DNA of 64,000 nucleotides from an uncultured virus (IMG/VR IMGVR_UViG_3300030376_005178) (IMGVR_UViG_3300030376_005178), one strand, 5' to 3'. Positions 6,133-64,000 are shown, counted from the stretch's first letter. Notes: generated by a model from the sequence alone, not told the origin. Translations and numbers: made by a program.

Positions 6133-6326
6133 AATTTAGATGTAATTTTTGCAAGCATCTCCTTTATCTCAGAGATCTCTTTCTTCATATTATTTAGTTC
6201 TTCTTTTTCCAATTCTTTTTTTGATTTTTGTTTCATATAAGCAGAATAACCAGAGCTATCATTGTTGATGATAGCTCCAGTTTTCTCGTCTCGATATAAA
6301 TTTGGATGTCCTTCTACCTGAATCAT
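6129..6326 (-). CDS. Conserved cyanophage hypothetical protein
   Basis: MIQVEGHPNLYRDEKTGAIIN... followed by a coiled coil; ATGA-coupled to the 2432-aa gene. Confidence 0.75.
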   Translation of the reverse strand: MIQVEGHPNLYRDEKTGAIINNDSSGYSAYMKQKSKKELEKEELNNMKKEISEIKEMLAKITSKL

Positions 6327-15231: not shown

Positions 15232-15239
15232 TATTTATA
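15232..15239 (-). promoter_or_regulatory. T4-type late promoter TATAAATA
   Basis: Exact consensus overlapping the gp7 stop codon, 35 nt upstream of gp8. Confidence 0.75.
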
Positions 15240-27200: not shown

Positions 27201-30200
27201 CATTAACAATAATTAATCCAATTTGTCCAAATGCACCATAATTTACATCAACTGAAGGTGCTTTTTCAAAATTGATAATATTAGAACCATAATCTTGACC
27301 TCTATCATAAAGAATAGTATCTACAACCTTACCACGAACAATAGGGTTCGATTCTAGGGTCTGAGGAGTATTAGCATCTGTAATAATATTGATATCAACC
27401 GTTACAGGAGGATAGAAGAAATCTTGATACCCAGTTCCAGAGCCATCAAATCTAATATACTCTTTATTCAGATAATTTGTCTTATCTGGAGTTCTTGTAG
27501 TAGCAATACCAGAGTAACATAATCTAAAACGATCATCATCAATCTTTAATACTTGATATTGTGAATTTGTAGTTAATCCAGTAATTACTGTACCTCCAGT
27601 ACTGGAGATTCCATAATGAACTACTTCTCCATCATTAAATCCATGATCATCAAATTCTACAAAATCTCTAAAGGTACTAACTCCTGTAGGTGCAACAGAT
27701 ATTCTTCTATTGGTATATCCAGATCCACCATCAAGTATATTAACTCTAGAAATACGGCGTTTGTTATAATAATCATTAAATTGATGAATACCAGTATTTA
27801 AATCAGCAGAAGTTGATCCAAACCCAACAGTATTAACACCAGCAACTGAATCAGATTTTGATCTATAAAGTTTGAATATTGTTGCACTCGTAATACCAAC
27901 ATAATAAGATTGACCTTCGACTAAACAAGTATCAATACCAGCAGAAGTTACAGTATGAAGACCAATTACATTATTATTATTTGAACTATAAAGTACCCTA
28001 TCACCTGTCTTATAAAAATGCTCTTTATCCATTATAAATCTGTCACTCATCCAATCAATGTTACCACCGTTGTAGAATGACTTCGCATTAAATGTAAATT
28101 GCCTATATGTTAACTCTGTTATTGGTTGAGCAATTGCTCCAGATCCATTTCCTCCATGAATGTCTACAGATACAACATTCTTGATCTCATAATCAATAGG
28201 ATCTATTAAAACATCAGTAATAGTTCCACCAATAGATAATCTACCAACAGCAGTGTTAATTCCAGTAGAACTATCCTCAATTGTTATTGAAGGTGGATTA
28301 AGAACATCATAATTAGTACCAGGATTAACAATATCTAAATTCTTTAACGGACCATAGTAAATATATTTGTCTGACTTATAATTGGTAATTTCAACACCAT
28401 TAATCAACATTCCAGTGTTACCATCAAGGGTTACTTCGGAAGTTGTTTTTTGCTGTACACCAACAGTTAAATCTTGATCAAGAATGAATCTTTTAAGAGC
28501 TCTTGCAGGGAAAATAGATCTTCTAGCTTGTTCTATACGAACAAAATCATGAATTCCTGTAGGAACATTAGGAGGAACAAATTCAACAGATATACCAGAA
28601 GGAATAAAGGATCTGGATGGATATAACTTAATTTTATTCTTTTGTGTAAGTACTTCAACAAAATAAGAATCTTTTGTCAGTCCACCAATAGGAACAGTTC
28701 CACCGCTAGGCACATAAGCAATTTCTTCACCTGTTCTAAAGGGAACATCTTGTCCAAATGATATAATAGTAAATTTATCAGTTAAAGTATTATACCCTTG
28801 ATAACTACCACCAGATACGGATGGATTTGTTAAAGTTGCACGAATTTTATCAGTATCAATAGGATATGATGGAATAGAGTTAGAAGCTACAAATGCTTCC
28901 TTTTTAGTACTTTCAGAATACTTAGCATCTAGCACATAAGTGTTAGTAACATCAGATAAAATCTGATTTTGACCACCTACAATAGGAACTGTAGTACTAG
29001 TCGCTTTTTCTTGAAGTCTTCTTATATCATACTGATATCCAGGAGTAGTTGAGAAGACACCTGATATATTGATAGAATTATTTGATGTATTAACATAACT
29101 AACAGTTAAAGGTGACGCTGCTACTGTTTCAGTATTTCTTATAAGCAATTCAATCTTATCACCAGCATTAAGTCTGGATTTATCAATAATTCCAGATAAA
29201 GTAAAGGTAGATCCTGTTAAATCTTCAATCTCGAATCTACTACTAGTGTTATAAACAAAAGAATTGAAGAATATTTCATCCCACTTTTTATTATTTGGTG
29301 GATTCTTAACAAATCTTCCAAGGTTCTTAACTTTAATACGAGAAGTTGGTGTTAAACCATATAAATCCTGAATACTATCAAATTCACTTAAAACACCAGT
29401 TATTCTCATTGTAACTGGTTTTGTGGTAATATTATCCTCGTATCCATATACCAAAGTAGGTGTATAGATCTCAGTAGCTGATGGTATATCAATACCAACA
29501 GTAGATACACCAATAAACTGGTTTACAGTCTTTTCAGTATAATCTAATTTCTGAAAATAAGTGTTTGTGGACAATCCAACTTCAAAAGTACCAGTTTGAC
29601 CAAAACCAATAGTAGAATCAACAGTAAGAACAGTTGCACCAAGTCCAACTCCACCAATTACCTGAGTTTTACCTGGAACAACAAATGTACCATCAATTAA
29701 TGCTCTATCATCATATCCAATAAAGACTGAAATACGATAATAATCATCTCTAATCTGTACAACCTCAGAAACAGGGCCACTTGCAGCATTAACTAAACTA
29801 TTACCTGCTTCATTATCTTGATATAGTGTCTGACCTACTAATTTTAAAGGATCTCCACTAACTACCCTTACAGCAAAGGATTGCCTTCTCAAATAATTGG
29901 CATAAGAGGGTTTTATGAGGTATTTTTCAAGATCATTGATTTTTGGTTCTAAACCAAACAATGCTTTGAATAAAATCTTGAAAGATTCGTCAGTACCCTT
30001 AGATTCGTATAAACTTCTTGCTTCCTTAAGAAAATTATTAACATCTAATGTAGGACTTAAAGCAACACCTTCTAAACCTGGAGCAAACTGCTGTTTTATG
30101 TTATCATAAAACTCCTGAAGGAATAAAACACTTAAATTCTGTATACTAGATCCAGAATCATGAGATGCAGCAATTGTTTGTGTCCATTTTAAATTTTTTG

Positions 30201-35786: not shown

Positions 35787-35947
35787 TCTTCTTCAATGTA
35801 AAGTCCGTCATCTGTGAGTGATATATTAACCTCTGTGTCTTCGTACCAGTTGAGTTCATTGACATATGACTCAGGAACTGCTATAATGTATTCATTGGTT
35901 ACATTATCGACTCTTATGGGGGTTTTGAATTTATCTGATTTTTTCAC
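35783..35947 (-). CDS. AbrB/MazE-like small DNA-binding protein (54 aa, GTG start)
   Basis: EYIIAVPESYVNELNWYEDTEVNISLTDDGLYIEE fits the swapped-hairpin pattern; first gene after the non-coding region. Confidence 0.6.
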   Translation of the reverse strand: MKKSDKFKTPIRVDNVTNEYIIAVPESYVNELNWYEDTEVNISLTDDGLYIEEE

Positions 35948-36215
35948 AATATGCGTGGACTGACCTATGATTTTATATATCAGAAATTTTTTTTCTAGAT
36001 TGATATCGAAAGGTCGAATTGGGTCGTTTATAGCTTATGAAGTAGGAACCCTATTAAAACACGCATCACGCCACACCACGATAACACATAAGAACAAAAA
36101 GACTGCCGATTAAATGTTATTAATTGCCTGGTGATTGCATCATATTAATTATATCATAATAATGCTAATCATGCAATGCTCGATGTTACATTGTGTCTTA
36201 TAATTGCATCATATA

Positions 36216-36351
36216 AAATGTTAATTAGTGTGCATATGTTAAATGTTAATTAGTGCATGTAATCATCATGAGACAAAATGTTAATTAGTGTGCCTCACAG
36301 TTGTTGACAATTAGTGCATGTAATATGCATGATGCTCAATGATAATTAGTG
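36216..36351. repeat. Five AATTAGTG direct repeats (three extended to AAATGTTAATTAGTG)
   Basis: Cores at 36223, 36248, 36283, 36309 and 36344; spacings 25, 35, 26, 35. Confidence 0.85.
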
Positions 36352-36384
36352 TGTCATGATTGTCTCATAGTTGTTGTTAATGTA

Positions 36385-36414
36385 ATTATAGCATATATGC
36401 TCTCTATCTGTCAA
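36385..36414 (-). promoter_or_regulatory. Consensus sigma70 promoter firing into the AATTAGTG array
   Basis: TTGACA-18-TATAAT with an extended TGn. Confidence 0.75.
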
Positions 36415-36416
36415 TA

Positions 36417-36582
36417 TGTGTGTGTGTCTTATGTTATATTATCTCTCATGTAATCATCATAATACAAAGTGTATATGAAGGGGGTGTATATAAGGGGTCT
36501 TATATGTAAACATCTGTGTGTGTCTTATGTTATAACAATAGGCATAATACTTCGAGTCTTATATGTTACAAACTGTGTGTCC
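36417..36582. repeat. GTCTTAT(AT)GT / TGTGTGTC repeats
   Basis: GTCTTAT at 36426, 36497, 36522 and 36556; TGTGTGTGTCTTATGTTATA occurs twice. Confidence 0.75.
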
Positions 36583-36587
36583 TCTAT

Positions 36588-36616
36588 TTGACATTATGCC
36601 GTGTCCATGTTATGCT
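36588..36616 (+). promoter_or_regulatory. Plus-strand sigma70-like promoter
   Basis: TTGACA-17-TATGCT with a TG extension; opposite to all genes. Confidence 0.5.
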
Positions 36617-36734
36617 CGCTTAGTCAACATCATAATGCCGCAATTAGACCCCTTAGAGTATCATTTAGTGGACACACAGTTAATGACATAAACAACGCAT
36701 ATATGTTTATAAAGGTATTTAAATAAATGCGTAG

Positions 36735-36743
36735 TTTTCCACA
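36735..36743 (+). promoter_or_regulatory. Cyanobacterial-type DnaA-box-like 9-mer TTTTCCACA
   Basis: Exact TTTTCCACA with an inverted partial partner GGGGAAAAC ~15 nt downstream. Confidence 0.4.
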
Positions 36744-36801
36744 ATTTGTATCATTTACGGGGAAAACACTTGTTTATACTTAGTGGTGCAATCTCTCAGA
36801 C

Positions 36802-44671: not shown

Positions 44672-45907
44672 TTAATAAGCGAATGAGTGTGCAGTTAGAC
44701 CATCTTCAAAGATCAATTCTATTAACTTTTGAAGACGATTACGAGTAGCAACAGATGATTTACTGTTGATAGGTACAGTTACAACACCATGTTTCTTATG
44801 GTATTGTTTAACATTACCTGCTTCAATCGTATCATTATGTATATTGTTATAATCATATTTATGAAGACGGATAACCCTTCCAATCGTTTGTGCCATCTCA
44901 ATAATAGGTAGATTTCTTAATAAAATAGTATGAGTTAATCCTGGAACATTGATACCTTCAGATAATATTGAATAATGAAATAATACAAACTTTCTATTAT
45001 CATCATCACCCCATTCTTTCAAAGTATCAAAGAATACTTGACGATTAACTTTAGTTTTATTAATATATGCACCATGCTTACTTGTAATGTGCATTATATC
45101 ATAACCCTGCTTTTTTAGGGATGATATAATATTACTTTTAGTCAGCATATTCCATAATATTGTAGTATTAGGGGCAGCAACTAAGATCTTAGGTGATAGC
45201 TCTGACTTGATATTCTTGATGATATTTAATATCACCTTCTTATCAATTTCAGGTGCATTATATTTTGTTCTAGTCTCATTTGTCTCATGTATATCAATTA
45301 GAGGTGCTAATATTGTGCCATTCTTAACAAGTTCAGGTGCAGGTACACTAATTAAAGTATTACCATAAACCTCTGAATTGTTCATGCCTCGTTCATTATT
45401 ACCTCGTGAATATTTGGGTGTAGCAGTAAAGAAATAACTACTATTTGACTTTACTGTTGATATACCTACAAAATGATTTTTAGATGTAGAGTTATGTGCT
45501 TCATCACAATATAGTACATCAATGTTAACCATTGAATCACATATTTTATGCAATGAATGATAAGTAGTGAAGATTAATTTATCATATTGTGGATGACGAC
45601 TCACCCAATTTGTGATAAACTCAGGTTTAGTTTCTCTATCATACTTAGTTTCACCACTATGTACATGCAACACCTTAACTTGAGGAACTTCAGTAATAAA
45701 TTCATCACATAATTGTTGTGCTAATAATATTCTAGGTGCAACAATTACAGCAGTTAATGGTGTATGTGCTGGTACATTAATTCTACTCTTTAAATCCTCA
45801 ATCATAATTGCAGTTTTGCCACCACCAGTAGGGACATAAATGCACCCCTTATTTGATAGTTTCATTGCTTCAATAGCACGAGACTGATGTGATCTAAGTT
45901 TTTTCAA
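44672..45907 (-). CDS. Superfamily 2 (ResIII/DEAD-like) helicase/ATPase; probable TTG start at 45907
   Basis: LRSHQ (Q motif), PTGGGKT, DEAH, TAT, LSEGINVP and QTIGRVIR. The track start at 45964 lies inside the upstream structured RNA. Confidence 0.88.
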   Translation of the reverse strand: MKKLRSHQSRAIEAMKLSNKGCIYVPTGGGKTAIMIEDLKSRINVPAHTPLTAVIVAPRILLAQQLCDEFITEVPQVKVLHVHSGETKYDRETKPEFITNWVSRHPQYDKLIFTTYHSLHKICDSMVNIDVLYCDEAHNSTSKNHFVGISTVKSNSSYFFTATPKYSRGNNERGMNNSEVYGNTLISVPAPELVKNGTILAPLIDIHETNETRTKYNAPEIDKKVILNIIKNIKSELSPKILVAAPNTTILWNMLTKSNIISSLKKQGYDIMHITSKHGAYINKTKVNRQVFFDTLKEWGDDDNRKFVLFHYSILSEGINVPGLTHTILLRNLPIIEMAQTIGRVIRLHKYDYNNIHNDTIEAGNVKQYHKKHGVVTVPINSKSSVATRNRLQKLIELIFEDGLTAHSFAY

Positions 45908-45930
45908 TAGTAGATTATATGTAAAGAATG

Positions 45931-46090
45931 TGTCGAGGGAACGGGGCATCAACATAGGTTTCACCTATATGCCCAAATTTACCTACTGGGAATCGCTTAC
46001 ACCTGAACCCCTACTACATCAATTACTGCAGAGGCATTATCCATGACTGCAGGTGATGTTTCGGGCAGTAGAACCGCTTATCCCTCAACA
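45931..46090 (-). ncRNA. Candidate ~160-nt structured RNA (ncRNA or helicase 5' leader)
   Basis: 5' and 3' ends pair over 10 bp (one G-U on the minus strand); internal helices; begins at the predicted +1 of the promoter at 46096. Confidence 0.7.
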
Positions 46091-46095
46091 TATTC

Positions 46096-46153
46096 ATTAT
46101 AGCAATAAAAAACCCCCTGAAAGGGGGTGAGGTGTCAGTTTATTGACCGTCAC
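46096..46153 (-). promoter_or_regulatory. Early promoter with 8-6-8 palindrome
   Basis: TGcTATAAT at 46096-46101; GTGTCAGT-ttattg-ACCGTCAC at 46132-46153. Confidence 0.75.
46107..46128 (-). terminator. Intrinsic terminator after the basic protein gene
   Basis: CCCCC-tttca-GGGGG followed by TTTTTT. Confidence 0.75.
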
Positions 46154-46452
46154 ACATTGAAGTGTGACTTATAAGATTTGGTAGCATACTGATAGAAACT
46201 AGAAAGAGATTTGTTAGCTAATTGTAAACCTTTTTTGCAATCATCCAAGAATAATGTAAACTCATAGTTATGAATTTTAACTCTTGACTGATAGTCTCTC
46301 ACATAATGGTTGAGAGTTAAAACTGTTTTAGCAGGTCTCTTTAATTTCTTCGGTGTTACCTTAGTAACAGACTTTGTAGAAGTTGTTGTTACTTTGCGAG
46401 TGCGTCTTTTGCGTGGAGTAGTTGTTCTCTTTGCAGTAGCAGCAGTTGGCAT
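46150..46452 (-). CDS. Arg/Lys-rich basic protein, possible RNA-binding protein
   Basis: N-terminal AKRTTTPRKRRTRK...PKKLKRPAK; lies between the large RNA and a terminator. Confidence 0.7.
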   Translation of the reverse strand: MPTAATAKRTTTPRKRRTRKVTTTSTKSVTKVTPKKLKRPAKTVLTLNHYVRDYQSRVKIHNYEFTLFLDDCKKGLQLANKSLSSFYQYATKSYKSHFNV

Positions 46453-46474
46453 AATGTAGGTTAATGTAAACTAT

Positions 46475-46954
46475 AGGGATGTTAGTTCTTTCTTCGGTAG
46501 CGAACCGAGAGGCACATCCATCTCCTCGTTTTTGTGTGTAGGACTTACAGGGCGTAATTTCTCTGCTGAACAGAGACAACCATAGACCCTTGCCTAAATG
46601 ATGTGGGACTTACAACTTCAAAACTGTCTTTTCAGATGTCTAGGACATCAGCAGTACAAGAGGTCTCCAAACATAAAGAGCAGTTTTCCACAGAATGAAT
46701 CAAAGATCATCTGATTGTTGCTCACCCCTGCCTTGCGTTTGCCCAGATAAGGTGAGTGGGGCAGAGAGTAATTTCGTGCTTTCTCTTCTTAGAAGCAGTT
46801 CACGAATCTTTAGACCTCCACGCTGTTTAATCAGGATTCTAACCTGACCCCACATAGGTGAGAGAAAACAAAACTGAGGGGACAGTTGCATTACCTTGAC
46901 ATCATGTGACTGCTTCTAAGTCAGTCTAGTCAGGAACCTCGTTTGTTTTCCCAT
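46475..46954 (-). ncRNA. Candidate ~480-nt large structured RNA
   Basis: At least nine nested helices plus a perfect 12-nt loop-loop complement; first helix starts within 2 nt of the predicted +1; no convincing ORF. Confidence 0.72.
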
Positions 46955-46960
46955 ACATGT

Positions 46961-47018
46961 ATTATAGGGCATCAAGGTCGTTGTGCAACTTTCTCTGTGA
47001 CACTTTCTCAACTGGTTC
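46961..47018 (-). promoter_or_regulatory. Early promoter with 8-6-8 palindrome driving the large RNA
   Basis: TTGCAC-16-TATAAT; GTGACACT-ttctca-ACTGGTTC at 46997-47018. Confidence 0.75.
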
Positions 47019-47357
47019 TTCATAGAATATCTTATTATTATATCCTATCATCAAATGTTTCCATGATTTGTTATCACCATGCTCTAGAATTTGATAGACT
47101 TCTTCTATACTTTCAGCACCTTGATTTGTTGTCCATCTTCTACTATACCATGAATTACCAATATCAAATGTATATCCTTTTGCTAATAGTTCATCAATAA
47201 ATGGATCATCATGGTTAATTATAACTCTAGACCTAAATTTAGGGTCTTGATTATTCTTTCTAACATAAACTGTCTTGCCACCATCAGGCGACTCATAAAT
47301 GTTGGTGTCTTGTTTAACACCTCTATTCATAACATTAGCAAATAGTTTATCTAACAT
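46962..47357 (-). CDS. Hypothetical protein
   Basis: 131 aa with an IYESPDGGKTVYVR motif. Confidence 0.7.
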   Translation of the reverse strand: MLDKLFANVMNRGVKQDTNIYESPDGGKTVYVRKNNQDPKFRSRVIINHDDPFIDELLAKGYTFDIGNSWYSRRWTTNQGAESIEEVYQILEHGDNKSWKHLMIGYNNKIFYEEPVEKVSQRKLHNDLDAL

Positions 47358-48821: not shown

Positions 48822-48879
48822 ATTATAGTTTATTATTATATTAGATGTAGGGTAGAGTGGACAGTTCCTTAATTGACTC
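48822..48879 (-). promoter_or_regulatory. Early promoter with degenerate 8-6-8 palindrome
   Basis: TATAAT at 48822-48827; TGGACAGT-tcctta-ATTGACTC at 48858-48879, the same 36-nt offset as other copies. Confidence 0.6.
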
Positions 48880-50334
48880 AAGAAATTGCTTATGGTCTAC
48901 ATATTCAAACTGTTTCTTAGAGTTCTCAATAAATTCATGCTGATCTTTAGCATCTTTCAATAAGTCTCCACTATTCTTTCTTGATAAAGCATAATCTTTA
49001 ATTGCATCTTTATTAAACATATGAATACCATTCATTACTTGTATATAATTATCATGTCCCCAATAGTCTAACATATCATCATTTCTAAAGAGATCTAAGA
49101 ACTCATGTTTACATTTTTGTTCCATAGTTCTAACCCATTTAGTTTTATTATTAGTCATATGTCTCCAAAATGGTGAATCATCTCTATTTGTACAATAATG
49201 TAAATTAAGGAATTGAGAATAGTCAAAGAATATTCTATTTTGTACCATATTAAATCTATCTCTATTATAATCTAAGTTCTTTAATGTAGAATTAATACTA
49301 ACAAATGTCTCAACCATAAATGTTAAGTATTGATGTGTTAATGCTTCTAATGGTTCAATAAAACCACCTGATAAACCCACTGCTACACAGTTACCAATCC
49401 ATGCCTCCTTCCAATGTCCAGTCTTCCATTTAATTATTCTATCTGACTCTAATTGTACACCATGATTATCATTTAACCATCTATTATAATCTTCCTTTGC
49501 TTCATCATCAGATGTAAATTGTGAAGAATATAGATAACCAGTACCAAATCTTTCTTGAGTAGGTATCTGCCAAATCCAACCATTTTGTGTTGCTTCAGAT
49601 AAAGTATATGTTGGTATCTTACCAGTATTGTTATTAACTAATTGAGGTATTGCACTATCAATAGGTAGATGTTGTGATAAATCTACCCACTCTGGATTTA
49701 ATTCATTTAATAATATAGATTTAAACCCACTAGCATCAACAAATAAGTCTGCATGATAATTACCAGTATTCTTACCTGTAACACTCTGAATATTCTTACC
49801 ATCAGATGTTACTCTTGATATTACATCAGGTATTAATGTTACTCTATCCTTTAAATAATCAAATAAGAAATTACATAGTTTATCAGTTGTTATATGAAAA
49901 GCATAATGATAACCTGTTAATTTATTAGGTATTAATGTATTAGCTTTATTCCAATTAACACCACCATTATATGTGTTATTTAATAATGAATGAAAGGCAC
50001 TATAATTATCTGATAGATCATCATTCTGTTGTTCACTACTATCACATGTTACTTGACCAAATCCATGATAATATTCTTCATTAGGAATCCAATTCTTAAA
50101 TAATACTCCTAACTTAATCGTTGCATCTAATTCTCTAATAGCATCCTCAGTTGTGTATCCTAAAGTATCATTGAACACATCAATAAAACTAGGTGTTGTT
50201 CCCTCACCTACACCAATACTTTGATTATCAGGATCATATATGAGAGATATATTAACACTATCACCCCAGTAATTCTGCATAATTGCAGCAGTAACTAACC
50301 CAGATGTTCCACCACCAACTATAACTATTTTCAT
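48841..50334 (-). CDS. Flavin-dependent tryptophan-halogenase-family protein
   Basis: GGGTSG FAD motif, IGVGEGT, ATIKLG (catalytic Lys region), FVDASGF, GWIWQIP and FIEPLE; ATGA coupling gives the start at 50334. Confidence 0.9.
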   Translation of the reverse strand: MKIVIVGGGTSGLVTAAIMQNYWGDSVNISLIYDPDNQSIGVGEGTTPSFIDVFNDTLGYTTEDAIRELDATIKLGVLFKNWIPNEEYYHGFGQVTCDSSEQQNDDLSDNYSAFHSLLNNTYNGGVNWNKANTLIPNKLTGYHYAFHITTDKLCNFLFDYLKDRVTLIPDVISRVTSDGKNIQSVTGKNTGNYHADLFVDASGFKSILLNELNPEWVDLSQHLPIDSAIPQLVNNNTGKIPTYTLSEATQNGWIWQIPTQERFGTGYLYSSQFTSDDEAKEDYNRWLNDNHGVQLESDRIIKWKTGHWKEAWIGNCVAVGLSGGFIEPLEALTHQYLTFMVETFVSINSTLKNLDYNRDRFNMVQNRIFFDYSQFLNLHYCTNRDDSPFWRHMTNNKTKWVRTMEQKCKHEFLDLFRNDDMLDYWGHDNYIQVMNGIHMFNKDAIKDYALSRKNSGDLLKDAKDQHEFIENSKKQFEYVDHKQFLESIKELSTLPYI

Positions 50335-51686
50335 ACACATTTATAACCAATAACACCAAAATCTTCAGGTGGGTCAATGTTACCTAAAGTCTTAAAATAT
50401 TTAACATAAGGAGCACCTAATCCGATAGAATATTCATAAAACATATTAGAATTATTCATCCAATCATACGGTAATATAGTTTCACCTGTAGCATTTTGAT
50501 TATGATGTGCTATTCTATAATCATCATCACTAAATGAATCACTTAATATACTATCTAAAAACTTTTTACCTGCAAATACACCTGGATGAGAGAAACAAGG
50601 ACTATTTAAGTATTCTATTGCTGCATCTTTTGTATTCTGCCAGAACTTAGTATCATATCTTGATCCATATTGATATGAAAAACATATGAATGATTGTAGT
50701 GTTTGAATAATATAATTACTGTAGGTTAATTGTAACATATGATCGTGTTCTTCTCTTTCTCGTGCATTATCATTGAACAAATATCTACATATTTGTTCTG
50801 AAATAAAGAATGAAGATTCTGCACTTGATCCAGGACTTCCTGGTTCGATATTAATTAACGCTGTACCATTCCGAATATATCTTTTATTATCTGGATGAAT
50901 TACATAGTTAGATATTTTTGGTGTCCATGTGTGTGAGTATATTTTATACTGATCAAAATCCTCATCAGGAAATACTAATTTAAAATCCTCTCTAACATCC
51001 TCTTCTGTTGATATATTACTATCATACAAATAAACCCATCTTTGCATATTACCATAAGGTAAACCAACAATATGTCCATACTTAGCAGCATATTCTATAG
51101 TATAATTCCATTCACCTTTTGTTGGTTTCTCTACAATTACAGCACTATTTGTAAATGTAACACTAGGATTCATGTAGTCATCTTCCCATCCTAATGGATT
51201 CTTCTCAGTACAATCAATAACATAATCATATTCATCTCCATTAATAAGGCATTTTTCCCCACTTACTTCAAATGAATCAATTTTCTGCTCAATTACAGAT
51301 ACACCTTCCCCAAATATTGATCCACCGTCTTTAATAAATTCTTGTCTAAACTTTTCAATATTAAATGTATTACTACATCCTTGAACCATAAAGTTCTTAT
51401 CTCTTCTCGTACCCCACCCAACATATTTGTATCCACAACTATCCACACCATCACAATACTTTTCTAACCATCTCTTAGTAAAGTATATCTCTCTTTCTAA
51501 TACTTCCTGAAATGCTACACCTGCACCACTTAACATAAATGGGTGTACTTTATCAGGATCATGTATCAATGTATATTCATCATCACCAAAATCATCTATA
51601 CCATCATATCTTTTATTATTAATTAACAGTGCCAACTGCATGAATCCCTCCATAGTTGCACCAACAATAGCTATCTTTCTACTCAT
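50331..51686 (-). CDS. Divergent halogenase-fold protein
   Basis: Same overall layout (IAIVG, YVIDCT, INIEP, YDTKFW) but GxGxxG and WxWxIP are degenerate. Confidence 0.65.
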   Translation of the reverse strand: MSRKIAIVGATMEGFMQLALLINNKRYDGIDDFGDDEYTLIHDPDKVHPFMLSGAGVAFQEVLEREIYFTKRWLEKYCDGVDSCGYKYVGWGTRRDKNFMVQGCSNTFNIEKFRQEFIKDGGSIFGEGVSVIEQKIDSFEVSGEKCLINGDEYDYVIDCTEKNPLGWEDDYMNPSVTFTNSAVIVEKPTKGEWNYTIEYAAKYGHIVGLPYGNMQRWVYLYDSNISTEEDVREDFKLVFPDEDFDQYKIYSHTWTPKISNYVIHPDNKRYIRNGTALINIEPGSPGSSAESSFFISEQICRYLFNDNAREREEHDHMLQLTYSNYIIQTLQSFICFSYQYGSRYDTKFWQNTKDAAIEYLNSPCFSHPGVFAGKKFLDSILSDSFSDDDYRIAHHNQNATGETILPYDWMNNSNMFYEYSIGLGAPYVKYFKTLGNIDPPEDFGVIGYKCV

Positions 51687-58784: not shown

Positions 58785-61700
58785 TTATTTATCTTTGATG
58801 TCATCGACCTGTTGTGACAAGTCTTTGACTGCCTCAATTAGTAGAGGAATCAGTTTATTATAGTGGACACCCTTAGTGCCGTCAGGTTTAGTTGATACTG
58901 CTTCAGGAAGAACCTTTTCAACATCTTGAGCAATGACACCAATGTCATGTCCTTGATAGTTCTTGTTACCTTCCTTCCAGTCATATTCAGTACCACGAAT
59001 ACCCATTAGTTTTTCTAATGAACTATCCAAGATATTGATATTCTCTTTTAATGTAGCATCAGATGATTGACCATAGAATGCGATAATATCATCGAGACAA
59101 TGTAATGGTCCTTTAAAGGTAGCACCAGAACCACTATGATAGAAGTCACCACTCATTGTAGTGAATCCAGTGAAGTTAACAGTATCATTAAAGTTAACTT
59201 CTGCAGAATATGATGTATCAGTTGCAATAGCAACAGAGTATCCAGGAGCAGCATTAAGAATTAAATCACCTGCACCAAACTTGGTAGTAATCTCAGTATT
59301 ATTAGTTCCAACACCAACTTTAATGTTGTTGATATTTGCACCAGATGGGAACTGACCAGTAAATGTTATATCACCTGCTAGTTCAATACTACCACTAGAT
59401 ACAACCTTACCAGTAAAGTTAACATCATTAGTAAATGTAACAGGACCATCAAATTGTGATAAGATATTCTGCTGAATACCACCCTCTACATTTATTCTTT
59501 GCTTAACTGTAACTTCATCAAATACAACTGAGTTGGCAGAAGGATCTTCACCAGTAATTGTTGGAATAGGAATACCATATGAGGATTCTTTACCACTTGC
59601 TGATGAAATACGCTTGTTACCAATATAGAAGTCACCTCTATTATTCAATCCAGTGTAAACAACAGAACCACCACCTCTTTCTTGTGCTTGTGCAAGATAC
59701 TCCTCAGTATCAGTCAGAGTTCTATTCTGTACCTGTGGTAGTGATGTTGAATAGTTACCTGGACCATAACCAAGGTATTCAAATGTGTGACCTGATGCTC
59801 TAAGGATAGATGGTCGTCTAGTCTCTATACCAAATACTTTGATCTTCTTAATCATAGAATCAATAGTATGTGCTTTAGGAACTGTTCCTAATTGTCCTCT
59901 GAGTACAGTAAATGCATTATTACCAGATCCACTTAACCCACTAGCAGATATTCTTAGAATTTCCTCATCTATTTCAACATAATCACCAATTAAGAATCTA
60001 TGAGCAGTACCAACACCAGTGTGTTGAACAGGAATAGATGTATCTGTATTGGTTATATTAGTCTGTAATCCAACATTATCTCCATCATATAAGTTAAAGT
60101 ATCTTGAACCAATAGCTTCTTCAATACTAACTGATTGATTATGATCTGAGAAAGCATGAGGTAATATTCTATATCCTGCAACAAATACAGGATCACTTAC
60201 AGTCTTAGCACTAAATGAAGTTACACCAATACGAGTCTGACTGTAGTAGTCACCAACCTTAAGATTGCTAGAATTTCTAATAGTGAACTGTTCACCTTGT
60301 CTAATCGCATGAGCACCAGATGTAACAAATGTAGTAACACCTGTAGTAGCATCAAACTCTGTAGATGCAATAGCAACAGAAGGTCCAACTCTAAAGATAT
60401 ATTGATCTGAAGTAACTGTTGGATCTAATGTTGATATACCAATAGTAACTTGATCTTTAGCACCAACCTTAGTGATTATATAATATCCACCATCAGTTTT
60501 TCCAGTACCAGTTACTTGGAGTACATCATTAACAGAATTAATAATACCTGTAGTTGGAACACCAATAGATGCACCAGCAAAATTCTCAGGGAATAATGTT
60601 TCACCACCAACATATCCTGATCCAGGATTCTGTAGTGCAAATGTAGTAATAGCAGTAGAACCTACACCAACAGTAATATGTGCAGTTGCACCATTCCAAT
60701 TTTGTGATCCATCTAACAATCTTACATTATACTTATCAGTAACAGCAAATCCTGTTCCACTACTCATCCAAGATCCATTTTCATATTCAACAAATCCATT
60801 TAACTCATGCTGAGTTGTTAATTGAACTGTTGCTACACCAGCAGAAACAGCAGTAACACTAGAGACAGCAATTCCAACACCAATGTTCTTAGTAAACTTA
60901 TCAATAGATTCTCTTGTTAATGAATTAAGAAGACTATTAGTTTCTACTTTACCAAGTGGATCTCTTCTTGCAAAAGATACAGCAGGTGGTGGATTCTTCC
61001 TAATATTATCTCTATCTAACTGTGGATAGAAATCAGTAATCTGCTGACTGTATTCTTGATCTGTAAATTCTGTTGGTGGTGCATAGTCAGATGCAGTAAG
61101 TTCTAATAGATATACACCATCACTTTCATCTTTAACCCAATTAGATAATGCTCTTGACCTATAAATGTCAAAGTTACCACCATTATCATTAATACTAAAC
61201 CTAGGTAAGAATAAATCTCGGTTATGATTACCTTCAATATATGAACCAGTATTTCTCTTAACACCAGCAGTATCAGTATTACTGAACTGATACTCCATAT
61301 TATTAACTACATTACTTACTGTAAAGTAACCGTTGTATCCTTTATTTGCTAATCCAACATTATTATTAGAATCAAGGATATTTTGAGTTAATACAACATC
61401 ACCTACCTTAACACCATGAGGTAGTTCACATCTTACAGTTACAGTATCACCTACTTCACTACAAGTTGCGATAAATGAATACTTTCTCTTAAAGTTAGTA
61501 TCAGTAGCATTAATACTTGTAGCATTTATATCAGCAGTTTTTGCATAACCAGTTTCACCTGTATTTTGAATAATAAATCCATCTACAGGATTTCTTGAGT
61601 TATTTGCTTGCTTAGGTATTACATAACGAACCTTGTATAGCTTATTCTCAATACCTCTACGATCTTCATACCTCTTAAAGTATGCAGGATCAGTTTCATC

Positions 61701-64000
61701 TATAGTATTAATATTAGTATTATTAACAATTTCATTATAAAGAGTACTATTTGTTTCACTTAATACATACCAGTTATTCTGGTTGGCATCCCATTGTACT
61801 GGATGACCAATATTACTTGGAGATTTATCACTTACTCTACTTTCAATCCTTAAATTACTACCACCATACATGGCAATAGGAATATTATTAATTGCATTAG
61901 AGAATGTTTTTGCTACCTTAATAGAGGTGCTACTAACTTTAATAGCATAGTAAACTGTATTTGGTGCTAGGTTCTCAGGTAGATCACCATCATCACTAAA
62001 CACACGAATAGTTTCACCATTTATAAGACCAATATCATTAACTGCTAACTCAAAATTACCATTAGGTACACTTGCAGGACTAAACTTAGTTCCTCTATGT
62101 GAATTGATACCAACATTAGAAGTCTGTACACCAGCAGTTACATTTTCTGGCATATAAATTGGAGAACTGAATTCAGTACCACCAATAGAAAGATATAATT
62201 TCTCATTTAAATTAGCACCAATTCTATATCCTTGGGTTAATCCAAGTGGTGATACATCTTCCCTAGTAAATCCAGAAAGGTATAGATGTGATGATATACC
62301 AGTTTGTTGTGTCTTGTTAACATCTAACTGGAACCAAGTAATATTATCTAAGTCTTCTGCATATGTTGGAACATATTCAGGTGCAACAAAGTGTGTGATA
62401 TATCCTTGGTCATCTCTTGGGAAAGCAGAGTTTCTAAATCCATCTGCAACTAAAGCATACTGACCAAAGTTGGAGTTAGAGTTAGTAATAGATGCGTCAG
62501 CACCACTCTCACCTCTTAAGTGACCATTAAATCCAATAGCGAATACAGAAACAATCTGAAGTTGTGCATTATTGGTTATGGCAACATGATCCTGCTCCCA
62601 TCCTTTACGGTATACTGCTCCACTATCCAAATGATAAACAGTAGTTGGGTCAGTAGAACTAGATTCTGCACTTAATGTTGCACCTTTAACAAGATTGTAT
62701 GATATTGATTCATATAAACGAGTTTCTTTATTATACTTTACAAATGCTCTATCATCTTTCTGCAATGAAATACCAGTAAACTGAGCAACAACCATTGAAC
62801 GGAAACCAGTTGCCTTGCTACCATCAGCTTTCATTCCTTGCATACCATAAACTGATCTCATTGAACAGTTAAAGATATAAGGTGATGCACCCTTGACAGT
62901 ATCAGATTCAATAGTTACTCTAGCTGTAGTAATATTGGTAGGTTTAGCAGGTAAATTATTAGGGAAATCTGCTATAAGATAAGTAAATTGTGTACTTGAT
63001 ATAACACTCTGAACTACAGTAGAAATATTATATTCATTTACATTAACTCCACTAATCTTAATAGGAGTACCAGCAGTAAGATCATGTGGTAACTGAGTCT
63101 GTACTGTTACCTGTGATGTAGGTGTCAATCCATCACCAGATATGATTGTTGATATTACTAATGGGTCAGTACCAAGAGCACCAACGATTTCATATTCTTC
63201 TCTAACCTTATCAAAGTCACCCTCTAAGTTTGGCCATTCGTAGTTAACTGCACGACCTGTTGGTTCCTGATAAGCATAACTTAGCTTATAGTAGTACATG
63301 CTAAGGTCAGTCTTCTCATATCCCTTAACATCGTTAATACCGTCAGCATACTCAAAGCATGTCAACTTATGGTGAGAGAATGTTGGTTTAGATTGATTAG
63401 CTTCAGTAAATTGTTGGTGATCAGTATATACTAACTTTTGCTCGTTTCCATCAAAGAATGAGAACTGCCAGAAATAACAGTTACCAGTAATTCTGAATAT
63501 AGCAGTTTCTGGAACTCCAGTATCTGTTGGGTTAGGAACATACTTTGGTCTTATCTTTGTCTTTCTGAGGTCCATACCCACGATGGATGTACCACGAGGT
63601 ACTATAACTCCACCATTTACTGAGTTGAACTTATAAAGAACATTATTTTCTACTAATAAATCAAATTCACTAGTCAAACTAAGACTAAATGTTGTTGTAG
63701 CAAGAGTCTCAGCACCTGAAGGAGAAACTGATACTGCCCTAGTAGCATCTGAAGGATCTACTTTTAATGCAAATCCAGGTCTATTGTCAATTAAATGCTC
63801 ACCTGGATATATTAGAATAGTTGTCTTATCACTTTCGTCGTTATCAATACCTGACTGATAGGAGAATCTAGCAGATTCTAACAGTGCTCGCTGTATCGTT
63901 TTAAAGGGTTTTGTTAAAGAGTTACCCTGATTAGTAATACTATCGGTGGAATCCAAGTCATTTGGATTAACATAGAGAATCCTACCCTCAGTATTCTTTA
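58785..64000 (-). CDS. Large tail fibre protein with C-terminal peptidase S74 intramolecular chaperone (5' end outside the window)
   Basis: Frame stays open to the edge (KNTEGRILYVNPNDLDSTDS); C-terminal SD..LKENI...GVIAQDVEKVLPEAV...YNKLIPLLIEAVK. Confidence 0.88.
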   Translation of the reverse strand, partial: KNTEGRILYVNPNDLDSTDSITNQGNSLTKPFKTIQRALLESARFSYQSGIDNDESDKTTILIYPGEHLIDNRPGFALKVDPSDATRAVSVSPSGAETLATTTFSLSLTSEFDLLVENNVLYKFNSVNGGVIVPRGTSIVGMDLRKTKIRPKYVPNPTDTGVPETAIFRITGNCYFWQFSFFDGNEQKLVYTDHQQFTEANQSKPTFSHHKLTCFEYADGINDVKGYEKTDLSMYYYKLSYAYQEPTGRAVNYEWPNLEGDFDKVREEYEIVGALGTDPLVISTIISGDGLTPTSQVTVQTQLPHDLTAGTPIKISGVNVNEYNISTVVQSVISSTQFTYLIADFPNNLPAKPTNITTARVTIESDTVKGASPYIFNCSMRSVYGMQGMKADGSKATGFRSMVVAQFTGISLQKDDRAFVKYNKETRLYESISYNLVKGATLSAESSSTDPTTVYHLDSGAVYRKGWEQDHVAITNNAQLQIVSVFAIGFNGHLRGESGADASITNSNSNFGQYALVADGFRNSAFPRDDQGYITHFVAPEYVPTYAEDLDNITWFQLDVNKTQQTGISSHLYLSGFTREDVSPLGLTQGYRIGANLNEKLYLSIGGTEFSSPIYMPENVTAGVQTSNVGINSHRGTKFSPASVPNGNFELAVNDIGLINGETIRVFSDDGDLPENLAPNTVYYAIKVSSTSIKVAKTFSNAINNIPIAMYGGSNLRIESRVSDKSPSNIGHPVQWDANQNNWYVLSETNSTLYNEIVNNTNINTIDETDPAYFKRYEDRRGIENKLYKVRYVIPKQANNSRNPVDGFIIQNTGETGYAKTADINATSINATDTNFKRKYSFIATCSEVGDTVTVRCELPHGVKVGDVVLTQNILDSNNNVGLANKGYNGYFTVSNVVNNMEYQFSNTDTAGVKRNTGSYIEGNHNRDLFLPRFSINDNGGNFDIYRSRALSNWVKDESDGVYLLELTASDYAPPTEFTDQEYSQQITDFYPQLDRDNIRKNPPPAVSFARRDPLGKVETNSLLNSLTRESIDKFTKNIGVGIAVSSVTAVSAGVATVQLTTQHELNGFVEYENGSWMSSGTGFAVTDKYNVRLLDGSQNWNGATAHITVGVGSTAITTFALQNPGSGYVGGETLFPENFAGASIGVPTTGIINSVNDVLQVTGTGKTDGGYYIITKVGAKDQVTIGISTLDPTVTSDQYIFRVGPSVAIASTEFDATTGVTTFVTSGAHAIRQGEQFTIRNSSNLKVGDYYSQTRIGVTSFSAKTVSDPVFVAGYRILPHAFSDHNQSVSIEEAIGSRYFNLYDGDNVGLQTNITNTDTSIPVQHTGVGTAHRFLIGDYVEIDEEILRISASGLSGSGNNAFTVLRGQLGTVPKAHTIDSMIKKIKVFGIETRRPSILRASGHTFEYLGYGPGNYSTSLPQVQNRTLTDTEEYLAQAQERGGGSVVYTGLNNRGDFYIGNKRISSASGKESSYGIPIPTITGEDPSANSVVFDEVTVKQRINVEGGIQQNILSQFDGPVTFTNDVNFTGKVVSSGSIELAGDITFTGQFPSGANINNIKVGVGTNNTEITTKFGAGDLILNAAPGYSVAIATDTSYSAEVNFNDTVNFTGFTTMSGDFYHSGSGATFKGPLHCLDDIIAFYGQSSDATLKENINILDSSLEKLMGIRGTEYDWKEGNKNYQGHDIGVIAQDVEKVLPEAVSTKPDGTKGVHYNKLIPLLIEAVKDLSQQVDDIKDK
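58786..58792 (-). promoter_or_regulatory. Late-promoter-like ATAAATA
   Basis: Overlaps the upstream stop, 30 nt before ATG 58756; same arrangement as at gp7/gp8. Confidence 0.55.

What the first reader, a model, noticed from the sequence alone, without database searches (positions are those of the whole stretch)
46475..46954. ~480-nt ornate RNA with a kissing-loop pseudoknot
Helices read by eye: 5' stem 46937-46952/46862-46879 enclosing a nested UGAC/GUCA hairpin with loop UUAGAAGCA; domain-closing 46849-46855/46601-46607; UCAGG/CCUGA hairpin ~46831-46847; 46812-46818/46660-46666; 46801-46806/46773-46778 with loop containing UGCUUCUAA; 46751-46756/46721-46726; hairpins 46635-46649, 46549-46590 and 46477-46519. 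The two loops lie in a perfect 12-nt complement (46909-46920 vs 46788-46799). GUAAGUCCYACA occurs twice (within 46602-46614 and 46537-46549). I see no tmRNA, RNase P or group I/II intron hallmarks. Size and complexity recall large phage-associated RNAs such as ROOL and GOLLD, but I cannot assign it. A 12-codon ORF starts at +1 (MGKQTRFLTRLT).
Basis: partly seen in the sequence, partly recalled or inferred. Interest (0 to 1): 0.85.

Follow-up and report, generated by a model that had tools for sequence, protein, structure and literature searches.

The report
Modular early leader RNA of cyanophage
The flagged gap in this ocean cyanobacterial virus does encode a folded RNA, but it is a string of five separately folding, interchangeable modules at the start of an early message and not one big knot-locked RNA. 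It belongs to a widespread family absent from the RNA catalogue, and its job is untested.

Summary
Window 46471-46954 (minus strand) is non-coding, richer in G+C than its flanks, and starts just after a sigma-70-type promoter. It matches nothing in Rfam. Related marine T4-like cyanophage contigs show that it is built of five self-closed modules (A, X, B, C1, C2). These occur in many combinations and can nest inside one another.

Compensatory changes support the helices of A, C1, C2 and X. B is too conserved to test. The last module, C2, is single-copy per genome. It carries an invariant GAGGAG and is followed by a six-base palindrome that varies in sequence but is always a palindrome. C2 sits 21-28 nt before the start codon of at least 17 unrelated gene families.

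His three long-range helices are not supported. The 12-nt loop-loop complement exists, but each partner occurs without the other in relatives. A second leader of the same toolkit (module E) heads the next gene.

Best reading (0.45): a modular 5' leader that stabilises and loads the first early message. Main rival: a trans-acting, possibly dimeric early RNA. Other windows of this scan have already met this family.

The parts
46983..46988 (-). -35-like hexamer TTGCAC, 16 nt before the -10 box
   Evidence: Read. It is weak (3 of 6 to TTGACA), so the scan did not list it. Relatives have TTGACA-N17-TATAAT at the same place (L430, L018, L092).
46961..46966 (-). -10 box TATAAT. It overlaps the TAA stop of the upstream 131-aa ORF. 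The inferred transcription start is about 46954.
   Evidence: A TA[TC][AT]AT hexamer sits a few nt before module A in 26 of 30 unique upstream contexts. The start site is inferred, not mapped.
46857..46952 (-). Module A, a long irregular hairpin. P1 is 46937-46952/46862-46879, P2 is 46929-46934/46894-46900, P3 is 46922-46926/46908-46912. The apical loop ACUUAGAAG lies at 46913-46921 and the tail is CUCACC.
   Evidence: In alignment A5 (20 sequences), 93.7% of cells pair and 11 of 27 pairs change on both sides; 0 of 500 shuffles reach the score. In relatives the apical loop holds 7 different inserts of 40-82 nt, one of them module C1.
46756..46853 (-). Module X. The closing stem is GUGGGG/CCCCAC (46848-46853/46756-46761). 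It holds a T-loop-like hairpin UCAGG-UUAGAAU-CCUGA (46831-46847), the stem GGAG/CUCU, and the variable hairpin X2 (46771-46808).
   Evidence: Eight unique homologues were found. The closing stem differs and stays complementary in 6 forms. The A/G:U/C pair of the GGAG/CUCU stem reads A-U, G-U or G-C. The X2 hairpin is 96-100% identical in L249, L250, L252 and L253 inside another scaffold, with a U-A to C-G change in L253. All of this was read by eye from printed sequences.
46788..46799 (-). The 12 nt ACUGCUUCUAAG, complementary to 46909-46920 (CUUAGAAGCAGU) in module A
   Evidence: The complement is perfect, and 16 of 1000 shuffles do as well. It is not conserved. Part of it lies in the local stem CUUC/GAAG.
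46602..46745 (-). Module B, from UGGGCAAACGCAAGG to GUUGUAAGUCCCACA, with two internal hairpins including 46635-46649
   Evidence: Eleven unique homologues average 90% column identity. Only 2 of 40 RNAalifold pairs show compensatory change. One hairpin is replaced outright in L005. The fold is plausible but hardly tested.
46537..46596 (-). Module C1. P0 is UAGG/CCUA, P1 is AGGG/CCCU and P2 is UCUCUG/CAGAGA. It has a conserved internal loop UCUAUGGUUG / AAUUACG and the tail GUAAGUCCUACA.
   Evidence: In alignment A3 (37 sequences), 95.1% of cells pair and 7 of 15 pairs change on both sides; 0 of 500 shuffles reach the score.
46520..46536 (-). A CA-rich, G-poor linker followed by the invariant Shine-Dalgarno-like GAGGAG (46522-46527)
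   Evidence: The linker composition over 108 unique loci is C 0.32, A 0.40, U 0.23, G 0.05. GAGGAG was part of the search word, so its invariance is forced by ascertainment.
46477..46519 (-). Module C2. The outer stem is GGAUGU/ACAUCC. The inner hairpin is UCGG-UUCGCUA-CCGA. The 3' strand AGAAAGAACUA is conserved.
   Evidence: In alignment A4 (93 sequences), the inner stem is 100% paired and 3 of 4 pairs change on both sides. The outer stem never varies. Model R1 finds 1 copy in the window, 1 in P-SSM2, 1 in P-SSM5, and 0 in S-SSM4 and P-SSM7.
46471..46476 (-). Palindrome CUAUAG directly after C2
   Evidence: In 117 of 119 unique loci a perfect 6-nt palindrome stands here: GCTAGC 56, CACGTG 22, CTATAG 16, CCTAGG 14, CCATGG 8, TCTAGA 1. 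The other 2 loci have 7-mers that are palindromic around a centre base. A second copy lies within 400 nt upstream in 1 of 117 loci, against about 9.8 expected by chance.
46150..46452 (-). First gene of the unit: a 100-aa basic protein (phrog_27005, function unknown). Its ATG lies 24 nt after ACAUCC.
   Evidence: The ACATCC-to-ATG distance is 21-28 nt in 84 of 101 unique loci. The downstream proteins fall into 17 clusters.
46107..46127 (-). Intrinsic-terminator-like hairpin CCCCCUUUCAGGGGG followed by a U run, ending the unit. A TATAAT box follows at 46096-46101.
   Evidence: The same kind of hairpin, with a -35-like hexamer in its loop and a -10 box, stands before module A in L010, L039, L041, L050, L074 and L225.
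45953..46088 (-). Module E, a second G+C-rich leader (GC 0.44) of the same toolkit. It heads the helicase gene at 44672-45964.
   Evidence: E has homologues in 76 fetched loci, often in front of C2 (for example L008). Its last hairpin, AUAGGUGAAACCUAU, abuts an in-frame AUG.

Best explanation
The stretch is the 5' leader of an early transcription unit: promoter, leader, 100-aa ORF, terminator. It lies in a variable region of a T4-like cyanomyovirus.

The leader is assembled from a shared toolkit of self-closed RNA modules joined by CA-rich, G-poor linkers. Recombination among co-infecting phages swaps, nests and deletes the modules.

The obligatory last module, C2, acts in cis on the message that follows. 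A stable helix, an exposed strong Shine-Dalgarno-like GAGGAG and a U-rich tract are held at a fixed 21-28 nt from the start codon. I infer that this shields the 5' end from 5'-end-dependent decay by the host's RNase E and RNase J. It would also hold a 30S subunit near an otherwise SD-less start, in the manner of a STAB-SD or 5' stabiliser.

Shown: the fold and its strand, the modularity, the promoter geometry, the fixed spacing, and RNA-library contigs that bridge C2 and the ORF.

Inferred: transcription start and end, stabilisation, ribosome loading, and any role of the upstream modules.
For: - **Promoter.** A -10 box stands before module A in 26 of 30 contexts, several with TTGACA-N17.
- **Position of C2.** It is always the last module. 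It lies 21-28 nt before an ATG in 84 of 101 unique loci, and these belong to 17 downstream protein clusters. There is no terminator between C2 and the ORF; one follows the ORF.
- **Minimal forms.** In L027 and L085 the promoter runs straight into C2 and the gene.
- **Second leader.** Module E heads the next gene in the same window.
- **Co-transcription.** Metatranscriptome contigs bridge C2 and the ORF: X2 records 10 and 11, X5 record 17.
- **RNA rather than DNA or protein.** The modules show covariation with G-U pairs. There is no synonymous variation and no conserved frame.
- **Linkers.** They are CA-rich and G-poor.
- **Established knowledge (recalled).** STAB-SD of cryIIIA stabilises mRNA through 30S binding. 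Cyanobacteria have RNase E and RNase J. Picocyanobacterial genes mostly lack SD sequences.
Against: - C2 is single-copy per genome and absent from S-SSM4 and P-SSM7. A general expression aid would be expected many times over.
- C2 is far more conserved than a simple stabiliser needs to be. Outside the inner stem it is almost invariant in 93 sequences.
- This reading does not explain the always-palindromic hexamer.
- Module A also stands alone, once 150 nt before a tRNA gene.
- Summed contig depth in RNA libraries is higher on C1 and B (up to about 315 and 281 in X1) than on C2 (34-56) or the ORF (0-7). This hints at separately accumulating pieces, but contig depth is a poor measure.
- No transcript ends have been mapped and no experiment exists.
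Confidence: 0.45

Rival explanations
1. It is a stand-alone early non-coding RNA that acts in trans, for example as a decoy or scaffold for a host or phage protein. It pairs with a second copy of itself through the 3' palindrome. The downstream gene is only a neighbour or a read-through passenger.
For: - It is single-copy per genome.
- Its sequence is conserved beyond that of the flanking genes, while both neighbours vary: 38 upstream and 17 downstream protein clusters.
- The internal loops are conserved, and C1 and X2 share UCUA.../AAUUAC.
- The hexamer changes sequence yet is palindromic in 117 of 119 loci. The other 2 are palindromic around a centre base. There is no cis partner.
- RNAcofold puts the palindromes in an intermolecular duplex stacked on the C2 stem in 2 of 8 representatives (GCUAGC and CCUAGG). 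The overall gain across all 8 is 4.5-8.0 kcal/mol.
- The modules are over-represented relative to the ORFs in four metatranscriptome runs from three studies.
Against: - There is no terminator after the palindrome, and RNA-library contigs run on into the ORF.
- The fixed distance to the start codon in 17 gene families is unexplained.
- A 6-bp duplex is weak at cellular concentrations.
- No partner is known.
Confidence: 0.3
2. The conserved blocks serve mainly at the DNA level as seams for homologous recombination. They would be mobile regulatory cassettes like the PeSLs of coliphage relatives, moving early genes between phages. The RNA folds would be secondary.
For: - The element sits in variable regions with different genes on both sides.
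- Module borders are break points of metatranscriptome contigs.
- Near-identical modules occur in otherwise divergent contigs, for example 51 nt of X2 at 100% identity.
- PeSL-like terminator-promoter hairpins flank the units.
- PMC2839356 (search listing and abstract start) and PMC4122927 (one passage read).
Against: - Compensatory changes that keep base pairs, including strand-specific G-U pairs, show selection on an RNA fold.
- Seams need homology, not structure.
- Nesting of modules exactly in hairpin loops respects the RNA architecture.
Confidence: 0.12
3. It is a structured pre-primer or origin transcript. On this reading, a single-copy promoter-driven RNA ending at a T-rich, easily melted stretch would start DNA replication, as ColE1 RNA II or the R-loop origins of T4 do.
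For: - It is single-copy.
- It has its own promoter.
- A T-rich tract follows C2.
- Helicase genes lie next to it here and in L039.
Against: - There is no GC-skew turn at the site.
- Leader length varies from about 60 to 550 nt.
- C2 is absent from two complete relatives.
- An ORF starts 21-28 nt later.
- Nothing here was tested directly.
Confidence: 0.04

Closest known systems
PeSLs (promoter-early stem-loops), the mobile regulatory cassettes of T4-type phages (Arbiol et al. 2010, PMC2839356; Comeau et al. 2014, PMC4122927)
   Same: Sigma-70-type early promoters are joined to a stem-loop. They sit in hyperplastic regions, flank variable small ORFs and mark recombination joints. Such hairpin-plus-promoter units flank this element (46107-46127 plus TATAAT; L010, L039).
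   Different: PeSLs are short terminator-promoter composites defined at the DNA level. Here 60-500 nt of transcribed, covarying, multi-module RNA follow the promoter. In the one paper searched for the terms (PMC4122927), 'cyano', 'P-SSM2' and 'S-PM2' occur 0 times.
Cyanophage cis-regulatory RNA motifs manA, wcaG, PhotoRC-II and glnA (Weinberg et al. 2010, PMC2864571)
   Same: These are structured RNAs in 5' UTRs of T4-like cyanophage genes. They were found by comparative genomics in marine metagenomes.
   Different: No match to any of their Rfam models. Those are single compact motifs tied to particular gene classes. This one is a combinatorial set of modules before unrelated genes.
ROOL and GOLLD large phage-associated RNAs
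   Same: They are large, phage-borne, of unknown function and sometimes near tRNA genes.
   Different: No cmscan match at E up to 10. Those are single large conserved folds. This element is beads on a string whose parts occur alone.
STAB-SD and 5' stabiliser elements of Gram-positive mRNAs (cryIIIA, aprE, ermC; recalled, not read here)
   Same: A strong Shine-Dalgarno-like sequence and a stem lie in the 5' UTR, too far from the start codon to serve it directly.
   Different: There is no homology. The element has extra conserved structure and a palindrome. The effect on stability is untested.
Retroviral dimerisation initiation site (HIV-1 DIS; recalled)
   Same: A six-base self-complementary sequence differs between lineages but stays a palindrome.
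   Different: In DIS the palindrome lies in a hairpin loop. Here it is a linear tail after a stem. Dimerisation has not been shown.
Coremin / xrRNA-C exonuclease-resistant motif of plant viruses (PMC6546385, PMC10520033)
   Same: Two small helices are separated by a conserved A-rich spacer. C2 carries AACUA, the essential core of the coremin spacer. Earlier notes of this scan report coremin-like modules in other cyanophages.
   Different: The inner loop NUCGCNN does not fit YGAD or YGNNAD. The spacer is 13 nt, not 10. No 3' hairpin follows. Instead the strand pairs back to the 5' side.

Membership tests
Any Rfam 15 family (including ROOL, GOLLD, tmRNA, RNase P, group I/II introns, manA, wcaG, PhotoRC, glnA, Yfr1/2) | Covariance-model score at or above the family's gathering threshold | tested here: not met
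   There were 0 matches in the whole window at gathering. At E up to 10, four matches appeared in 46300-47100: two in the element (+ strand) and two just outside or at its 5' edge. All are eukaryotic snoRNA or lncRNA models at 13-17 bits against cut-offs of 37-70. There were 0 matches at E up to 0.1 in 20 related loci. That these named families are in Rfam is recalled.
tRNA / tmRNA | Cloverleaf or tRNA-like domain plus tag reading frame | tested here: not met
   ARAGORN finds 0 genes in the window. The T-loop-like hairpins of X (UUAGAAU; UUCGAUU in L249) are a resemblance only.
PeSL mobile regulatory cassette | Sigma-70-like early promoter | tested here: met
   TATAAT lies at 46961-46966 with TTGCAC 16 nt upstream. 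A -10 box is present in 26 of 30 contexts.
PeSL mobile regulatory cassette | G+C-rich stem-loop (terminator) joined to the promoter | tested here: inconclusive
   This is present at 46107-46127 plus TATAAT 46096-46101, and before module A in L010, L039, L041, L050, L074 and L225. It is absent before module A in this window.
PeSL mobile regulatory cassette | Short composite without further transcribed structure | tested here: not met
   About 480 nt of covarying RNA modules follow the promoter.
Coremin / xrRNA-C | 5' hairpin of 3-5 bp with loop YGAD (or YGNNAD) | tested here: not met
   The C2 inner loop is NUCGCNN. A pattern scan of the window and loci gave 28 scattered hits, none in the element and none recurrent in leaders. 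The rule is taken from PMC6546385 (abstract, section 9) and PMC10520033 (abstract).
Coremin / xrRNA-C | 10-nt spacer with essential AACUA, directly followed by a second hairpin | tested here: not met
   AACUA occurs once (q475, in C2) after a 13-nt stretch. It is followed by the 3' strand of the outer stem, not by a hairpin.
STAB-SD-type 5' stabiliser | SD-like sequence in the 5' UTR, not placed to serve the start codon | tested here: met
   GAGGAG at 46522-46527 lies about 70 nt before the ATG at 46452. Its invariance is forced by the search word.
STAB-SD-type 5' stabiliser | 30S binding that lengthens mRNA half-life | not testable with these tools
   This needs toeprinting and decay assays.
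Palindromic RNA dimerisation site (DIS-like) | Self-complementary hexamer kept through sequence change | tested here: met
   117 of 119 loci hold one of 6 different perfect palindromes. The other 2 loci hold 7-mers that are palindromic around a centre base.
Palindromic RNA dimerisation site (DIS-like) | Physical dimer formation | not testable with these tools
   There is only an RNAcofold estimate of -4.5 to -8.0 kcal/mol.
Protein-coding gene | A reading frame kept open in homologues, with substitutions of period three | tested here: not met
   A, B and C1 have no frame open in all sequences. In C2 the best frame is open in 77 of 93 sequences over 69 nt. Variable columns of B fall 15/18/14 by position mod 3. 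L108 has a stop in the C2 mini-frame.

The most novel reading that the evidence does not exclude
Marine T4-like cyanophages carry an RNA construction kit. It consists of self-folding modules with conserved internal loops that recombination shuffles and nests like domains of a protein. The composite early RNAs would join in pairs, or in larger assemblies, through a lineage-specific 3' palindrome, and in this phage perhaps also through the 12-nt A-loop/X2 complement. They would act in trans during host take-over, for instance as decoys for host nucleases or defence sensors.
Probability: 0.2. Interest if true: 0.85.

Novelty: new variant of a known kind. Interest (0 to 1): 0.62.

Why it matters
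T4-like cyanophages kill a large share of the ocean's main primary producers, yet their early, variable genome regions are almost wholly unannotated.

A widespread, strongly conserved RNA family lies at the very start of early transcripts. It is also missing from Rfam.

This would give a direct handle on how these phages express or protect their first messages. Their hosts lack Hfq, mostly lack SD-led initiation, and are known to raise RNase E during infection.

The domain-like shuffling and nesting of RNA modules is itself unusual. It offers a natural experiment in modular RNA evolution. The ever-palindromic hexamer is a crisp, testable prediction of RNA-RNA pairing.

Tried and rejected
- **Whole-region thermodynamics.** Neither strand stands out (z = -1.11 and -0.81), so thermodynamics alone neither supports nor refutes the element.
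- **Own genome.** None is held for this window.
- **Bacterial genomes.** All 120 were chance matches without the C2 3' half. Presence in hosts is therefore neither shown nor excluded.
- **A-loop 15-mer scan.** It returned mostly chance matches.
- **Diverged C2 copies.** Model R1 run over 96 further loci found only 4 near-identical copies. The outer stem therefore stays untested. Two copies have a C-A mismatch at its last pair.
- **Palindrome pairing in cis.** No consistent partner appears in MFE folds of 8 representatives, and no second copy lies upstream.
- **Small peptide in C2.** This was rejected.
- **Coremin / xrRNA-C.** This was rejected for this element.
- **Replication origin.** There is no skew signal.
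- **Yfr1-like CUCACAC linkers.** They were noted by eye only and rest on a recalled motif; not pursued.
- **Depth in RNA-library contigs.** Parts of the window without cover, and the relative depths, are no evidence of level or absence.
- **Literature.** Searches found no description of this RNA. The sequence-string search hit only unrelated mouse primers. Supplements of Weinberg et al. 2010, which list motif instances in cyanophages, were not opened and could hold an unnamed candidate that overlaps this family.

Full report
**Where it lies.** The flagged stretch is the gap between two minus-strand ORFs, 46962-47357 (131 aa) and 46150-46452 (100 aa). All larger ORFs of the window are on the minus strand. 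G+C reaches 0.43-0.45 across 46400-46999, against 0.25-0.33 on either side.

BLAST against phage records gives only partial matches. All are in T4-like cyanomyoviruses (P-SSM2, P-SSM5, P-SSM7, S-SSM4, S-SSM6b) and single-cell marine viruses, and in the four isolates inspected the matches lie in unannotated intergenic DNA. The surrounding genes include a tryptophan halogenase, a ResIII/DEAD helicase, an N6/N4 DNA methylase and many small unknown ORFs. This is a variable region of the kind found in such phages.

**Is it a known RNA or a gene?** Rfam gives nothing at gathering thresholds in the whole window. At E up to 10 it gives only chance-level eukaryotic models. It gives nothing in 20 related loci. 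ARAGORN finds no tRNA or tmRNA.

No reading frame is kept in homologues, and substitutions show no period of three. Folding energy of the whole stretch is not better than shuffles on either strand.

**Modularity.** Pattern scans of IMG/VR with words from the element and local BLAST show that the stretch is a mosaic. I count q1 at window 46961, so window = 46962 - q. The pieces are:
- A (q10-105)
- X (q109-206)
- B (q217-360)
- C1 (q366-425)
- C2 (q435-485)

Among 146 loci with hits the pieces occur as C2 alone (51), C1-C2 (20), A-C2, A-C1-C2, A-B-C2, B-C2, B-C1-C2 and C1-B-C2. In some loci C1 sits inside the apical loop of A (sequences). These counts are biased, because the loci were fished with C2 and A words.

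Module A carries seven different inserts of 40-82 nt at the same loop position, always between AC and AGAAG. X is itself a scaffold with four kinds of apical insert. The order found here, A-X-B-C1-C2, was seen nowhere else. The middle of X (q121-201) had no relative in the first scans. Later scans found it in 4 and 8 contigs.

**Structure.**
- *C2* (93 distinct sequences): 99.8% of cells pair. The inner stem is 100% paired, and 3 of its 4 pairs change on both sides. The outer stem never varies. Half of it lay in the search word, so it is untested.
- *C1* (37 sequences): 95.1% of cells pair, and 7 of 15 pairs change on both sides.
- *A* (20 sequences): 93.7% of cells pair, and 11 of 27 pairs change on both sides. 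Most unpaired cells come from a one-column offset of one subtype in the MAFFT alignment.

In all three, 0 of 500 shuffles reach the observed covariation score, and slid controls fall to 26-61% paired.

Many kept pairs are G-U, which would be C-A on the other strand. The RNA is therefore the minus strand.

- *B* (11 sequences): 90% identical, and only 2 of 40 predicted pairs covary.
- *X*: the closing stem appears in six complementary versions, and one pair of the inner stem reads A-U, G-U and G-C (read by eye).

C1 and X2 share an asymmetric internal loop (5' UCUAWR, 3' AAUUAC). B and C1 share the frame GGCAA...GUAAGUCCYACA.

His local hairpins hold, with one register correction in A. His three long-range helices are perfect 6-7 bp complements in this window, but every shuffle had an inverted repeat of at least 7 nt. 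The comparative data speak against each one:
- GUGGGG closes X locally in relatives that have no B.
- GGAGG pairs locally in those same relatives, while B's GGAGACCUCU is invariant in B copies that have no X.
- The CUCACC strand is missing in front of 6 of 11 B copies.

**The kissing loop.** The 12-nt complement is real, and 16 of 1000 shuffles reach 12 nt. It cannot be tested by covariation, because only this window has both partners.
- The two complete genomes with the A loop have no partner.
- The four contigs with the X2 hairpin have no A loop, but they are fragments.
- The A loop itself varies (UUAG, UCAG, ACAG) and is an insertion site.
- Part of the X2 side forms a small local stem that covaries with L296, CUUC/GAAG against CCCC/GGGG (two sequence types only).

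I treat the contact as possible in this phage but not as a feature of the family.

**Transcription unit.** TATAAT (46961-46966) overlaps the stop codon of the upstream ORF, and TTGCAC lies 16 nt before it. A -10 box stands a few nt before module A in 26 of 30 unique contexts. Several have a full TTGACA-N17-TATAAT, or a terminator hairpin whose loop holds the -35 hexamer, as in PeSLs.

There is no terminator between C2 and the ORF. A strong one follows the ORF at 46107-46127. Next come another TATAAT and a second G+C-rich leader, module E (45953-46088), before the helicase. E has relatives in 76 fetched loci, often in front of C2.

**C2 and what follows it.** Model R1 finds one C2 in the 64-kb window, one each in P-SSM2 and P-SSM5, and none in S-SSM4 or P-SSM7. 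Upstream neighbours fall into 38 protein clusters and downstream neighbours into 17. Yet the distance from ACAUCC to the ATG is 21-28 nt in 84 of 101 unique loci. The downstream proteins are mostly unknown. One cluster is annotated as an anti-restriction protein, one is DUF6267 and one is a helicase.

Directly after ACAUCC stands a hexamer that is a perfect palindrome in 117 of 119 unique loci, in six different versions. The other two loci have 7-mers that are palindromic around a centre base. No second copy lies upstream. Selection therefore keeps self-complementarity and not a particular sequence. That argues against a protein-binding site and for pairing between two molecules. RNAcofold places the palindromes in an intermolecular duplex stacked on the C2 stem in 2 of 8 representatives.

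The mini-frame that starts at the C2 AUG is not conserved in length or residues, and it has a stop in L108. The flanking 18 nt show no synonymous change in 93 sequences.

**Expression.** Fourteen listed runs recorded as RNA hold part of the stretch; across all 20 holders the studies number 14. Contigs of four metatranscriptome runs from three studies were laid on the window.
- They cover C2, C1, B and A and break at module borders.
- Some bridge C2 into the ORF (X2 records 10 and 11, X5 record 17).
- Summed depth is far higher on the modules than on the ORFs.

Contigs cannot show ends, strand or level. DNA carry-over is possible, and the modules are shared by many phages. This shows presence in RNA libraries and is a weak hint of abundance.

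**Reading.** I commit to a modular 5' leader whose last module acts in cis on the first early message, through stabilisation and ribosome loading (0.45). Single copy number, the extreme conservation and the palindrome fit a trans-acting, perhaps dimeric RNA better (0.30). The two readings are not exclusive. DNA-level seams (0.12) probably explain how the modules spread, but not why their pairs are kept.

**Earlier notes of this scan.** On other cyanophage windows, earlier notes describe the same or a sister family: e1-6004909, e1-5750246, e1-6086211 and e1-6187792. They also describe coremin-like modules (e1-6060025 and others). I tested the coremin rule here and it is not met (PMC6546385 abstract and section 9, PMC10520033 abstract).

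**Literature.** No paper describing this RNA was found. Doron et al. 2016 could not be read.

Noticed in passing
window 45953-46127: A PeSL-like unit lies right after the 100-aa ORF. It comprises the terminator hairpin CCCCCUUUCAGGGGG with a U run, a TATAAT box at 46096-46101, and a second G+C-rich structured leader (module E) that runs up to the helicase start. E has relatives in 76 fetched loci and carries a variable insert in its middle.
   Followed up: partly
window 48841-50340 (-): A 499-aa tryptophan-halogenase-family gene (PF04820, E 7.6e-85) lies in the phage's variable region. It is possibly an auxiliary metabolic gene.
   Followed up: no
window 15235-30618, 6323-13621, 58785-63956 (-): Three giant ORFs of 5127, 2432 and 1723 aa. 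They were not analysed.
   Followed up: no
window 35787-36801 and 279-5384: Long stretches lack an ORF of 55 aa or more on the gene strand (1015 nt; 3555 nt and 1368 nt). They were not examined for RNAs or for genes on the other strand.
   Followed up: no
L249, L250, L252, L253 (about 690-780 in each locus): A different scaffold carries the same X2 hairpin. It starts with GAUGG-UUCGAUU-CCAUC, a hairpin with a canonical-looking tRNA T-loop sequence, which covaries to GGUGG/CCACC in L253. It stands before an unrelated gene.
   Followed up: partly
L097, L006, L005 linkers; window 46750-46760 and 46857-46862: Several module linkers read CUCCCUCACAC or CUCACC. This recalls the conserved single-stranded ACUCCUCACAC of the cyanobacterial sRNA Yfr1 (motif recalled from memory). 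Whether the phage RNA mimics or sponges Yfr1 was not tested.
   Followed up: no
IMGVR_UViG_3300006332_000008 (L017, L018): One 25.7-kb contig carries two C2-bearing leaders about 7.6 kb apart, one B-C2 and one A(C1)-C2. Single copy is therefore the rule but not absolute.
   Followed up: no
L002 (S-SSM4 1270-1585): Module A stands alone, about 150 nt upstream of a tRNA-Val gene, without C2.
   Followed up: no
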